Assembly: GCF_009914755.1 (NCBI RefSeq)
Contig: NC_060947.1
Source: the human T2T-CHM13v2.0 reference genome, Homo sapiens
Strand: one strand, 5' to 3'
DNA: 64,000 nucleotides
Part shown: positions 37,631 through 45,169 of the stretch, piece after piece
How positions within the stretch are numbered: the stretch's first letter is position 1
Layout of the letters: every line of letters starts with the position of its first letter
The notes under the pieces: model-generated
What the model was told of the DNA's origin: nothing
Databases searched by the model: none
What the model saw: the letters and a program-made list of their open reading frames with translations, nothing else
Program-made: the position numbers and the translations under genes

Positions 37631-38014
<384 letters not shown>

Positions 38015-38606: not shown

Positions 38607-39310
<704 letters not shown>

Positions 39311-40700: not shown

Positions 40701-41041
40701 TCTTTTTTAATTTTTTTTACATCTATAGACTTTATTAGATGTTCTTTATACAGTCATCTGGTATGTATAAAGAGTGAACAATCATATAAAAGGAAATATG
40801 GTCATAACTGATTGAATTAATAAAATCCTGAAACTAAATAACTCATAATTCATTGCACAACATATATTAGGTTTCATTAGATCAGTATATAGCTTAGTAG
40901 TAAACTCTCCTGATGGCCATAAACCTCTAAGGTGTTGTCATCCTGAAAAATGAAGGAGGGGAGGGAGCTGGTGGGGTGCAGAATGGAGAAACCTTCCATA
41001 GTGCTGGTGTGATGTACCCTAAGTTGTAAAGTTATAGGGCA

Positions 41042-41057
41042 TCGCCACCTAGTGGCA
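41042..41057 (-). promoter_or_regulatory. CTCF-like motif
   Basis: TGCCACTAGGTGGCGA on the - strand closely matches the CTCF core CCAC(C/T)AG(G/A)(T/G)GGCG. Confidence 0.65.
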
Positions 41058-42224
41058 GAATTTCATGCCTTGTTCTAATTAAGGGACTTTCCTTGTTTTC
41101 CAAAGAGCAATGTGTCTTGTTCACTTTCTAACCATCCCTCTCTGATGCTGTCCTTCCTAAAATCCATGCCTCCTCCCATACAGTGTAAACCCATCTGCTT
41201 TTCATCCATCAAGCTGTCAAGGATTTGGTTATGACAATTTTTATGTTCACCTAACTTTTTAGTTCCAAGTACTTCGGTTATTTTCAAAGCTACACACAGG
41301 ATGCCCATATTTTTATAACTCCATCTTATTTGTGAAGGATTATTACTTTGTGCTTTGGCCTAGTTTTTATTCTTACTGCTGAATCTTTTCATAAGTTAAA
41401 GTTATTGCAGAGTTAATGCTTTAAAAGGCAGTCCTTAGAGTAAATAGCTAAATGAAATCATTACCAAAATGTACACTTTGGATTTATTAAGATTCTAGAA
41501 TTTAAAAACAGGAAAAGGTGCCATTAGTGAAAATTCCATCACTAACATTTTGGTACCACTCGTAGAGCATCACATAAATATTCAGACCGTGATAACTCAG
41601 TGCAGGAATGTTATCAAATATGTCCATGCAATCTGGAACTAGGACCAGAGTTGGCAATTGGGGGTCTGAAGGCCCAACATCCCTTACACTGCTTCCTACA
41701 CCTTGACAACAGGAAGGCTGAGTGATACTAGGTAGTGCACTACAACAGTGAACATAAGCCAGCCATCTGTTTTTTGCAAAGTATAATAAAATAGAAAAAC
41801 AGAACATAGACCACTTCAGAGCAAACAAACATATCCTTCTTCAAGATGTAGGAAAACCATATATTCAAAACCAATCTCAAACTTTAAACAATAAAAGATA
41901 TCAAACATTTTAAACTGTACAAAGCAAATTAGCAAGATTTTAATGTTGGCAGTTTTAAAATGTCACCCATCCAAAACACAAAACAGGGAGATAACCAAGT
42001 CTTAGCTCCATCCTAATCAAAGCTGTCATGCAGATCCAGTTCCACTCTTCTCATCTCCAGCAGGTACTTCACTCAAGGAGGTAACACCCAAGGGGAGTAG
42101 ATGGACCAAAAACAAGAGTGCCACATAGAAGGAAGAGAGGGGACCTTGGACTTTAGCTACTGGTTAGCTATTCAACTTTGATGATATTCAGTGTTTTCCC
42201 AAGTTATTTTTTCTCGCTTCTCAT

Positions 42225-42450
42225 CACATAATTTACATTATGCATACTATGTGCCAGAGACTGTTTGACATGTAGTCAGTTAATTTTCACAACTGTGTAA
42301 AGTTGGTTTCTATCATTAGCTCTATCTTAGGGCCAAAGAAACTGAAGCACGGAGAGGTTAAATTGTATTCCTAAAGCACTACACAGTGAGCAAATAGATT
42401 CAGACCTGTGCAGTCTAACCCAGAATTAGCTCTGAATCACTCTACCATTC
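42225..42450 (+). mobile_element. MIR remnant
   Basis: CTATGTGCCAG...GAAACTGAAGCACGGAGAGGTTAAAT MIR core. Confidence 0.7.
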
Positions 42451-43667
42451 TGTCTACAGGACAACAAGCCTGTGTGTTTCAGGTACTTTCATGGTGATTT
42501 TTCACACAGGACAGCTTTTGATAATAGAAAGGCCCTCTCTTTCAAATGAAAGGACTTCACTGATGGATTAACAAATTCTCACCTTTTCACCTATGTGAGC
42601 CAAATACTAGATCTACTTTCTTAGTCTTCATAACAAGCAGGACGATAACCATAATTTATAATGAACACAAAACATTGATATAGTGTTCAAAGAACTTTTG
42701 CACACTTGGTCTCGTTTGGAAGAATGAAGTAATCTGGAAACATAGAATAGGCATACACTGTGACTTTAGGAAGAACTCTCACAAAATCAGAGGTTGCCCT
42801 ATGTAATATCACACTTTTTACCTTGAGCAGGTGGATAGCCTGGGAGTTCTTGTTATACCTCAATCTTGGTCCATTCTATTTGTTCCCCTGTCCTTCAGCA
42901 GTGCCCTTAGGCTTGCTTTAAACATTAACAGCATTCATAAGCATGGTTTCTAGGGTCAGAGCCCAGCCTCCCTCCACCCACCCGGCTCCCTACACACCTT
43001 GACAGTGCTCTTTGAGATGCCTCAGTTCTAGTCTCCTTGTAATTGTGCACAGTAGATGTCTGAACAAATAGACCAGAGTCCTGCAAAAGTGATCTTGAAA
43101 TCACAATTAAAAGAGACTTTGGAGAGATCTACTCAGGAAAATTTTCTGAATAGACAAATGCTTTTAAAGGGGGTTCTAGACAGTCCGTCTTTTCTGCCTC
43201 CTTCTGCGAAGTAGGGCTACACTAAAACCTTGTCACAATGTGACCTGAGCAAAACCATTATCAAGTGATTTAGTTGTCTTGAACCAGACAAAAGAAAATT
43301 GACATGATTTCAAGATAGGTTTAGAAAAATAATCTGACTAGCAAAAAAAAAAAAAAAAATGGGGGGTGGTTCCTAGGGAATATGAGACTTGATATTTTAG
43401 CAAAAATTTAAATATGCTCTTTATGATACACACATTTCTCGTTGCTTTACAAATTTTAAATGTAACACAAATTTGTTTTTCACACTGTTTTGTTAGTTGA
43501 GGTAAGGCATTCCTGCCGCACGCAGCAATGACTCGTCCTGGAAAACCAGGGAGGCTGCATATCCTACTGTTCCTTCTCTACTAGCTGTGGCTCCACACTC
43601 TCACCTCCACCAAAGAAAGCATTTCAGAATTTAGGGGTGGAAATGATGACAACATTGAATAATTCTA

Positions 43668-43962
43668 TTTTTTTCTTTTTTTTGAGACAGAGCCACTGTC
43701 GCTCAGGCTGAAGTGCAGTGGCGCAATCTAGGCCCACTGCAGCCTCCGCCCCCCGGGGTCAAGCAATTCTCCTGCCGCAGCCTCCCAAACAGCTGGGACC
43801 ACCGGTGCCCGCCACCATGCCCGGCCAATTTTCCGCATCCCTAGTAGAGACGGGGTTTCACCATGTTGGTCAGGCTGATCTCAAATTCCTGACCTCAGGA
43901 GATCTGCCTGCCTCGGCCTCCCAAAGTGCTGGGACCACAGGCGTGAGCCACCACGCCCGGCC
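43668..43962 (-). mobile_element. Alu (AluS-like) with clustered A>G changes on its sense strand
   Basis: Reverse Alu; TSD AAT(A/G)ATTCTA at 43658-43667 and 43963-43972. Confidence 0.92.
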
Positions 43963-44638
43963 AATGATTCTAATTTATATTTTTAAAAATTACCTTATAA
44001 TCTTAAAACTTTTAACTGATGAGTATCCAACCCTTAAACTTTATAACAATCATTTCCAAAGTGGAAAAGTCACTGGGATATGGGGAAAAGTATGATTTGT
44101 TTTTGTACTTCTATTTTTCTAATGTCTACTTTTTGTTTTCTAGTCTACATGTTAGCACAGGAGTATATATATTACTTAAGTATACCTATGTTGGAGTGCA
44201 TACAGAATTTCTTTTTAAATGATAGGATGCAAAATCAAATCTATTTGGATAGCAGTGAAGAGGCTGTTTTTCAATCCTGGCAAACTAGGGGGTGCATACC
44301 CCCTTTTTTATTTAGTAGCTTCCATAAGGCTATAACTCATGGAAGTTACATCCTTACATAAACTGATGGGCTATCCAACCAGTGAGGAAAACTGATAAAG
44401 TGGCCTCTGAGCTCCAGGAAGTAGTTAAACACTACTAAAAACATCTTGAAAATTTGGAAAAAAATTTAACAGTAAATGGATTCAGTAGTTATTCAGTATA
44501 AGGTTTGGAATAACTCCAGCCATTACAATAGACATTTATTTAAAGTAAAACATCTGCAGACCAAATAATTCTTAAAATTGTTTGTTTCAAGTTTAACCAT
44601 CTTCATAACAGCTGCATCCACAGACTTCAACTACATGA

Positions 44639-44974
44639 TTACTTCTTTGCCCATTCTTCTCTTTCTTTTCTTTCCCGAATAACCTCTTGCACATACAGTT
44701 CAAGGTAGAAATTTTCCTCTTCATATTTGGTCCACTGCTCTTTAGGCAAGATCTGATGCTTCATGGTCAGGTCCAATGCACTCTTAATGTGACACATCCT
44801 GTCATTATAAAGGTTCTCAGGAAGCCTTCTTATGGCTTCTTTTATGTCTTCATCCTCATATATTGTATCATCTCTCATTAACCCCAGTTTATTGAATCCT
44901 GCAGTATTGTAATACCATTTTCGAATACCATCCAGCCACTTGCCTGATGCTGAAATGGCCTGCTTGCCAGCCAT
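44639..44974 (-). pseudogene. UQCRBP1: UQCRB (complex III ubiquinone-binding subunit 7) intronless retrocopy ORF, 111 aa, open
   Basis: [23 protein letters not shown]...EREEWAKK, about 90% identical to human UQCRB as recalled; no introns; followed by 3'UTR-like sequence with AATAAA. Confidence 0.93.
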
Positions 44975-45169
44975 TTTGACCTGCTTTAATTTTTTTTAAT
45001 CCTTCTTATAACAAGATACAAAAATTATACACTGGCTGCTCATCCCAACAGAATTTGGCAATATAAAACATTTTCTTTCATTAAATACATAGAAAAAGTG
45101 TGGTTATTGATATTTATTGATGTAGTTATTATTGAATTTTATATTTGTGTTTTTAAAATTTTTATTTTT

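What the first reader, a model, noticed from the sequence alone, without database searches (positions are those of the whole stretch)
43668..43962. Alu with strand-specific A>G hypermutation: possible genomic fossil of ADAR editing
Against the recalled AluS consensus there are about 14 T>C changes on + (A>G on the Alu sense strand): 43734, 43751, 43790, 43799, 43800, 43826, 43833, 43834, 43836, 43839-43841, 43935 and 43936. The linker CTAAAAATACAAAAATTAG reads CTAGGGATGCGGAAAATTGG, and both TGTAATCCC motifs read GTGGTCCC. I saw no such pattern in the other Alus here. The affected strand is the UQCRBP1 mRNA-sense strand. Inference: an A-to-I edited UQCRB long-3'UTR transcript was reverse transcribed, fixing inosines as G.
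Basis: partly seen in the sequence, partly recalled or inferred. Interest (0 to 1): 0.8.

Follow-up and report, generated by a model that had tools for sequence, protein, structure and literature searches.

The report
RNA editing fossilised in a retrocopy
An old DNA copy of the human UQCRB messenger RNA carries 15 A-to-G changes packed into one Alu repeat on the message strand, likely because ADAR had edited the RNA before it was copied back into the germline genome, and a second, unrelated retrocopy shows the same mark.

Summary
Confirmed and extended. The Alu lies in a 4.3-kb processed copy (40720-44984, minus strand) of the UQCRB parent on contig C8: three introns are gone and a 14-bp target-site duplication flanks it. 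The parent has A at all 14 reported sites. Polarised with 140 Alus, the copy gained A>G at 15 of 61 adenosines versus T>C at 1 of 50 thymidines (p=5e-4); outside the Alu only 24 of 1202 A differ (p=3e-11). All four published Alu editing hot spots are hit (p=0.003), changes cluster (p=0.001), and the parent's only inverted Alu lies in intron 2, 2.2 kb upstream. Against: 5'-G depletion alone is not significant here, 3'-G preference is absent, and the partner is far for efficient editing. A second intronless copy (septin gene, C1:196.40 Mb) shows the same mark: 32 of 123 A in two Alus versus 1 of 151 between them, with 5'-G avoidance (p=0.002). Best reading: ADAR-edited mRNA was reverse-transcribed by L1 and fixed in the germline (0.9). 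Eight literature searches found no report, but the library is partial. Primate orthologues and parent editing data could not be checked.

The parts
40720..44984 (-). Processed (intronless) copy of the long-3'UTR UQCRB mRNA; the annotated UQCRBP1 (44185-44981) is only its 5' fifth
   Evidence: Collinear with G000:C8:97352405-97356470, 97357109-277, 97358490-562 and 97360848-872; 5.5% different outside the Alu (215/3937 columns)
43668..43962 (-). Sense-oriented Alu in the copied 3'UTR, orthologous to the parent Alu at C8:97355426-97355712
   Evidence: Collinear flanks; 9 states shared by parent and copy against the panel majority, three of them present in under 10% of the panel
43935..43936 (-). 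A>G pair at Alu positions 27 and 28 (published editing hot spots)
43833..43841 (-). Six A>G in the A-rich linker (43833, 43834, 43836, 43839, 43840, 43841)
   Evidence: panel G at most 3% at each
43826..43826 (-). A>G at Alu position 136 (hot spot; raw index 137 with one extra linker A)
43790..43800 (-). A>G at 43800 (position 162, hot spot), 43799 and 43790
43693..43751 (-). A>G at 43751, 43734 and 43693 in the right arm (all after G)
40706..40719 (.). Target-site duplication, copy at the 3' end of the insert; its A-run directly follows the mRNA end, no separate poly(A) tail is left
   Evidence: 14-bp exact match to 44985-44998
44985..44998 (.). Target-site duplication, copy at the 5' end of the insert; the junction reads TT then an A-run on the minus strand, as expected for L1 endonuclease (consensus recalled)
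40731..40736 (-). AATAAA polyadenylation signal, about 12 nt before the end of homology with the parent
44639..44974 (-). Uninterrupted 111-codon UQCRB-like reading frame, with exon-exon junctions near 44716, 44883 and 44956
   Evidence: translation and parent splice sites

Best explanation
This Alu sits in a spliced retrocopy of the long UQCRB mRNA and carries 15 copy-specific A>G changes on the message strand, most likely inosines that ADAR made in one germline transcript and that L1 reverse transcriptase then copied into DNA as G. Steps: (1) shown: the parent's last exon holds a sense Alu and intron 2 an antisense Alu 2.2 kb upstream, the only inverted partner between exon 1 and the poly(A) site. 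(2) Inferred: the two paired in the nascent RNA before intron 2 was removed. (3) Inferred: ADAR deaminated about a quarter of the Alu's adenosines on that molecule. (4) Shown: the template was spliced and ended just after AATAAA, and the insert has a 14-bp target-site duplication. (5) Established knowledge: reverse transcriptase puts C opposite inosine, which gives G on the sense strand. (6) Inferred: this happened once, roughly 20-30 million years ago (5.5% divergence, calibration recalled), in a germ cell or early embryo. The copy has no demonstrated function; it is a record of one edited molecule.
For: Parent has A at all sites. Copy lineage A>G 15/61 vs T>C 1/50, p=4.6e-4; parent lineage A>G 1; outside the Alu 24/1202, p=3e-11. 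The excess stops at the Alu edges. Adenosines 27, 28, 136, 162, named as hot spots in PMC1636486, are all changed; chance 0.0026. Adjacent changed pairs 5 vs 0.9 expected, p=0.001, as described for Alu editing in PMC526178. 5 of 8 A after T are changed; after U/A 11/24 vs after G/C 4/37, p=0.005, a grouping chosen after seeing the counts. Inverted Alu in intron 2; 247 of 290 nt predicted paired to it. Independent second case: C1:196.40 Mb against two paralogues, A>G 32/123 in two Alus vs T>C 5/90 (p=5e-5) and vs 1/151 between the Alus; after G 2/31 vs 28/77, p=0.002. Its septin match runs through profile positions 201-258 in one piece 550 bp away, where the C7 gene has two exons 12 kb apart.
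Against: 5'-G depletion alone is not significant at this locus (3/20 vs 12/41, p=0.34). 3'-G is not enriched (3/21). A after C is rarely changed (1/17), whereas PMC526178 reports a preference for C and T at -1. PMC4066801 reports that editability falls with a scale of about 800 bp, is about 20 times lower at 2.4 kb, and is weaker across an intron-exon border, so a molecule edited at 25% of its A would be an uncommon one. Predicted pairing does not separate changed from unchanged A (12/15 vs 39/46 paired), and three changed linker A are unpaired in today's sequences. No RNA data, no primate orthologue: simultaneity is not shown.
Confidence: 0.9

Rival explanations
1. GC-biased gene conversion or a local mutation hot spot raised A/T to G/C in this Alu after insertion.
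For: Single A>C, T>G and T>C changes also arose in the copy; the Alu is the GC-rich part of the region.
Against: Weak-to-strong changes are 15 A>G against 1 T>C, 1 A>C, 1 T>G; strand symmetry is rejected (p=4.6e-4). The pooled panel is symmetric (A>G 189 over 59 columns, T>C 118 over 38). It gives no reason for the four hot spots or the second case.
Confidence: 0.02
2. The copy's Alu was overwritten by gene conversion from another Alu that carried these G; or the parent Alu once had the G (an edited Alu RNA that inserted) and was later corrected.
For: Conversion between Alus is known (recalled). The genome search for donors scored only 40 of 10021 candidates, so it is not exhaustive. No shared private state lies in 43887-43962, where two sites fall.
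Against: Best other hits are 83-85% identical; no panel Alu shares more than 4 of 14 G; parent and copy share 9 non-majority states from 43695 to 43886, interleaved with the changes. Correction of the parent would need 15 exact reversions that spare those states.
Confidence: 0.03
3. Adenine was deaminated in DNA after insertion: the copy lies antisense in an NBDY intron, so its sense strand is the template strand of NBDY, and ADAR acting on the DNA strand of an RNA:DNA hybrid would give A>G on that strand.
For: Direction fits; two oppositely oriented Alus lie 4.7-6.2 kb away in the NBDY transcript. ADAR activity on hybrids is reported (recalled; a title).
Against: A hybrid with NBDY RNA would not stop at the Alu edges. 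The neighbouring NBDY Alus show 1 A>G each. The pattern follows RNA hot spots, and the second case is again a retrocopy.
Confidence: 0.02
4. L1 reverse transcriptase misincorporated C opposite A during this one insertion (error burst, nucleotide imbalance), without any editing.
For: Would also be strand-specific, single-event and limited to retrocopies; six changes lie in an A-rich linker.
Against: The other 3.9 kb of the same cDNA, with 1202 A and several A-runs, shows no excess (A>G 24, T>C 34 of 1247). In the second case the 520 bp between two changed Alus is spared (1/151).
Confidence: 0.03

Closest known systems
ADAR hyper-/ultra-edited Alu RNAs (PMC526178; PMC3197674)
   Same: A>G cluster on the transcribed strand, confined to an Alu, inverted partner in the same transcript, TA hot spots, neighbouring sites changed together; AAA and GAG contexts, which PMC3197674 finds relatively more common in ultra-editing, occur here.
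   Different: The changes are in genomic DNA and inherited, not in RNA; 3'-G preference is not seen.
L1-mediated processed pseudogenes (UQCRBP1 itself is annotated)
   Same: Intron loss, end at a poly(A) signal, target-site duplication.
   Different: Carries a block of directional changes that most likely predate insertion. Retrocopies have been mined as fossils of splice forms (Shemesh et al. 2006, recalled, not read); I found no such use for editing.
APOBEC-edited retroelements fixed in vertebrate genomes (PMC4866542; PMC2873906)
   Same: A deaminase leaves a strand-biased cluster in a retro-transcribed element that becomes heritable; detected by the same pairwise-plus-consensus logic.
   Different: Those are G>A, made on cDNA of LTR elements or Alus; this is A>G, most likely made on the RNA of a host gene before reverse transcription.
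A>G-hypermutated retroviral proviruses, and retroprocessing of C-to-U-edited mRNA in plant organelles (both recalled, not read here)
   Same: Edited RNA is written back into DNA by reverse transcription.
   Different: Other substrates (viral RNA, organelle genes); not a nuclear host mRNA fixed in the primate germline.

Membership tests
L1-mediated processed pseudogene | Introns of the parent precisely absent | tested here: met
   Four parent segments joined; GT donors and AG acceptors at the parent breakpoints examined (5 of 6 sites; the exon 1 donor was not printed)
L1-mediated processed pseudogene | Target-site duplication | tested here: met
   14 bp exact, 40706-40719 and 44985-44998; A/T-only, so of low complexity, but it sits at both ends of homology
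L1-mediated processed pseudogene | Poly(A) tail after a polyadenylation signal | tested here: inconclusive
   AATAAA present about 12 nt before the end; the only A-run is the one that belongs to the duplication
ADAR-edited Alu substrate | A>G excess on the transcribed strand only | tested here: met
   15/61 vs T>C 1/50, p=4.6e-4
ADAR-edited Alu substrate | Confined to a region able to form long dsRNA with an inverted repeat in the same transcript | tested here: met
   Confined to the Alu; inverted Alu in parent intron 2, 83% identical, 247/290 nt predicted paired; distance 2.2 kb is unfavourable
ADAR-edited Alu substrate | G depleted at -1 | tested here: inconclusive
   3/20 vs 12/41, p=0.34 here; 2/31 vs 28/77, p=0.002 at the second locus
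ADAR-edited Alu substrate | G enriched at +1 | tested here: not met
   3/21 A before G changed, p=0.22
ADAR-edited Alu substrate | Published hot spots 27, 28, 136, 162 and clustering of neighbouring sites | tested here: met
   4 of 4 hot spots, p=0.0026; 5 adjacent pairs vs 0.9, p=0.001
ADAR-edited Alu substrate | Inosine or A>G seen in the parent's RNA at these sites | not testable with these tools
   No RNA-seq or editing database on hand; a preprint passage says UQCRB has inverted Alus in an extended 3'UTR in J2 CLIP data without giving places
APOBEC-edited retroelement | G>A clusters on the sense strand | tested here: not met
   4 G>A and 4 C>T in the copy lineage
GC-biased gene conversion tract | Strand-symmetric weak-to-strong excess | tested here: not met
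   A>G 15 vs T>C 1

The most novel reading that the evidence does not exclude
The human genome holds a whole class of retrocopies that froze single ADAR-edited germline transcripts. ADAR plus L1 is then a heritable, directional A>G mutagen, and these copies are a datable record of editing sites, enzyme preference and RNA pairing in extinct primates. One further case turned up among the first 20 of 199 matches to a single motif, which would extrapolate to about ten from that motif alone.
Probability: 0.75. Interest if true: 0.82.

Novelty: new variant of a known kind. Interest (0 to 1): 0.72.

Why it matters
It would be direct evidence that A-to-I editing, normally lost with the RNA, can be written into the germline genome, the ADAR counterpart of APOBEC-edited retroelements. 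A 2016 review states that a role for ADAR editing in Alu evolution had not been determined (PMC4982230). Each copy is a phased, single-molecule record of editing tens of millions of years old. It shows that an inosine-rich spliced mRNA could be taken up and copied by L1 machinery, and, if the intron 2 partner is right, that editing came before splicing. The signature is simple to screen for genome-wide, so the question becomes testable at once. It also means such Alus look older and more diverged than they are.

Tried and rejected
(1) Raw parent-versus-copy counts (24 A>G) overstate the signal; 9 sites have G as panel majority and were dropped as parent G>A. Some could be edits that restored a decayed CpG (PMC526178), which cannot be told here. 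(2) My first polarisation from local BLAST rows (144 rows) wrongly gave 43954 and 43958 to the copy; the end-extended alignment (140 rows) reversed this. (3) A G in the Alu's A-tail (43675) lies in an indel and was not counted. (4) Pairing state in the predicted duplex did not discriminate sites. (5) No non-Alu inverted repeat beyond 14 bp exists in the parent's last exon. (6) Other UQCRB pseudogenes cover only the first 470 nt or so, so none serves as outgroup for the 3'UTR; changes outside the Alu are unpolarised upper bounds. (7) The 20 Alus read from the 199 motif matches show no strand bias when pooled (A>G 54/985, T>C 32/592, both about 2.4 times the panel); several are monomers or misaligned, and only L093 held up. 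The other 179 were not read. (8) Searches for prior reports and passages of PMC2584115, PMC5745447, PMC9148063 and PMC11846448 gave none.

Full report
Observation. The Alu at 43668-43962 lies on the minus strand. Searching the window's own genome with its flanks found one long relative, on contig C8, which I take to be UQCRB because the hub annotates the window's copy as UQCRBP1 and the frame translates to a 111-residue UQCRB-like protein. The best 280-column window holds 24 such differences and coincides with the Alu; the best window not touching it holds 5.

Anatomy. Homology runs from about 40720 to 44984, five times the annotated length. Four parent segments are joined without their three introns. 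A 14-bp exact duplication flanks the insert (40706-40719, 44985-44998), AATAAA lies about 12 nt before the 3' end, and no poly(A) tail is left apart from the A-run of the duplication. This is an L1-type processed copy of a long-3'UTR mRNA. Outside the Alu it differs from the parent at 215 of 3937 columns (5.5%); with recalled primate divergences this suggests roughly 20-30 million years, an inference.

Direction of change. I built a panel of Alus from loci fetched with the parent Alu and the copy Alu as queries and from flanks of earlier loci, leaving out the UQCRB and window loci and three duplicates: 144 local rows, 140 after extending the ends and removing duplicates. The panel leans towards Alus resembling the two queries, which makes it conservative as a null. 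Taking the state favoured by the panel as ancestral, the 276 columns of the Alu body give for the copy A>G 15, C>T 4, G>A 4, and one each of T>C, A>C, A>T, T>G; for the parent G>A 9, C>T 5, A>G 1 and three transversions. So 9 of the 24 raw differences are most simply decay in the parent and were dropped. A>G 15/61 against T>C 1/50 gives p=4.6e-4; against 24/1202 outside the Alu p=3e-11. At 59 conserved A columns the copy has 14 G, the parent 1, and no panel Alu more than 7; the pooled panel is strand-symmetric and the 8 other Alus found in the window show 0-5. Parent and copy share 9 non-majority states, no panel Alu shares more than 4 of 14 G, and the best other genome hits are 83-85% identical, from 40 scored of 10021 candidates, so a conversion donor is unlikely but not excluded.

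ADAR signature. [quoted passage not shown] Counting from the Alu's first base, with one extra linker A removed (column present in 46% of the panel), these are 43936, 43935, 43826 and 43800; all four are changed, chance 0.0026. Changed sites adjoin each other 5 times against 0.9 expected (p=0.001), as PMC526178 describes. By 5' neighbour the changed fraction is T 5/8, A 6/16, G 3/20, C 1/17; U/A against G/C gives p=0.005, but that grouping was chosen after the counts, G alone gives p=0.34, the low value after C disagrees with PMC526178, and 3'-G is not favoured (3/21). PMC3197674 notes that ultra-edited RNAs use AAA, GAA and GAG relatively more, which fits the linker run and 43751 and 43734.

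Partner. Between exon 1 and the poly(A) site the parent has two Alus: the 3'UTR one and an inverted one in intron 2, 2.2 kb upstream; the next inverted Alus lie about 12 kb past the poly(A) site or upstream of exon 1. The two are 83% identical and are predicted to pair over 247 of 290 nt. Editing would thus have come before intron 2 was removed. This step is the weakest: PMC4066801 reports decay of editability over about 800 bp and weaker editing across intron-exon borders, and predicted pairing does not separate changed from unchanged adenosines (12/15 against 39/46). A preprint passage reports inverted Alus in an extended UQCRB 3'UTR in J2 CLIP data (10.1101/2023.11.30.569399); its supplementary figure, which I did not see, may name another pair.

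A second case. A 22-base motif carrying G at both 27 and 28 matches 199 places in the genome. I read the first 20. Pooled they show no strand bias, but L093 (C1:196.399 Mb) has 11 A>G against 2 T>C, none after G, and its flank holds a second Alu changed the same way on the same strand. Its 21 paralogues are 92-94% identical over the Alu-free flank and 83-86% over the Alu-containing flank. Against two of them, at columns where both agree, it has A>G at 32 of 123 A in the two Alus, T>C at 5 of 90 T (p=5e-5), and A>G at 1 of 151 A between the Alus (p=1e-11); after G 2 of 31, otherwise 28 of 77 (p=0.002). A septin profile matches positions 201-258 in one piece on the same strand 550 bp away, whereas the gene on C7 has positions 200-237 and 231-275 in exons 12 kb apart and 11 kb from these Alus. 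It is therefore most likely an intronless copy of that gene (SEPTIN14, name recalled). Two of its A>G were used to find it; the rest were not. Its ends and partner were not mapped.

Mechanism. Shown: processed structure, direction, strand, confinement, hot spots, presence of an inverted partner, and a second case. Inferred: pairing in the nascent RNA, deamination by ADAR, copying of inosine as G by L1 reverse transcriptase, one event in the germline. I put this at 0.9; that intron 2 supplied the partner at about 0.65. Biased gene conversion fails on strand symmetry; reverse-transcriptase error and DNA-level deamination fail on confinement to Alus; conversion from a donor fails on the shared private states.

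Known and new. ADAR editing of inverted Alus and L1 retrocopying are both well known, and APOBEC G>A editing fixed in retroelements is described (PMC4866542; PMC2873906). Eight searches aimed at an ADAR-edited mRNA fixed as a retrocopy gave no such report, and PMC4982230 says a role for ADAR editing in Alu evolution had not been determined in 2016. The library lacks most subscription journals, so this is weak evidence of novelty. For all papers cited I saw search listings and term-matched passages only, no whole texts and no supplements; PMC2584115, PMC9148063, PMC5745447 and PMC11846448 gave nothing relevant in their passages. Shemesh 2006, A>G-hypermutated proviruses, plant organelle retroprocessing, the L1 endonuclease consensus and primate divergence values are recalled.

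Verdict. Real, well supported, a new variant of a known kind: a deaminase signature made on RNA and inherited in DNA. Interest 0.72; higher if a genome-wide screen shows a class.

Noticed in passing
L100:830-1901 (G000:C1:196399329-196400400), minus strand: Second candidate editing fossil: two sense Alus with 32 of 123 locus-specific A>G, 1 of 151 between them, 5'-G avoided; an intronless septin match lies 550 bp upstream. Ends, target-site duplication and partner not mapped.
   Followed up: partly
window 40720-44184: The UQCRBP1 annotation stops at 44185, but the retrocopy continues 3.5 kb further, to the parent's distal poly(A) signal.
   Followed up: yes
window 44639-44974 (-): The retrocopy keeps an uninterrupted 111-codon frame with start and stop; no test of selection or expression was made.
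   Followed up: no
L053 (Alu at G000:C2:151898770-151899034): An Alu with G at 27, 28, 162 and 163, the most shared with the copy in the panel (4 of 14); it was retrieved by similarity to the copy, so it may be chance.
   Followed up: no
L096 (G000:C2:6441943-6442258): A little-diverged Alu with G at 27, 28 and two linker positions, A>G 5 of 10 changes at conserved columns; possible lightly edited copy.
   Followed up: no
window 43608: An A/G difference after T about 60 nt downstream of the Alu on the mRNA strand; it could be editing spreading into the flank but cannot be polarised.
   Followed up: partly
window 37632-37956, 38670-38957 and 43668-43962: The insertion put an antisense Alu into the NBDY transcript, 4.7-6.2 kb from two sense Alus, creating new inverted pairs of 74-84% complementarity.
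   Followed up: no
L100:780-850, L101, L102: In the septin 3'UTR family the second Alu lacks an A-tail and runs into what looks like a short inverted Alu end, shared by the paralogues: a possible remnant of a deleted tail-to-tail inverted pair.
   Followed up: no
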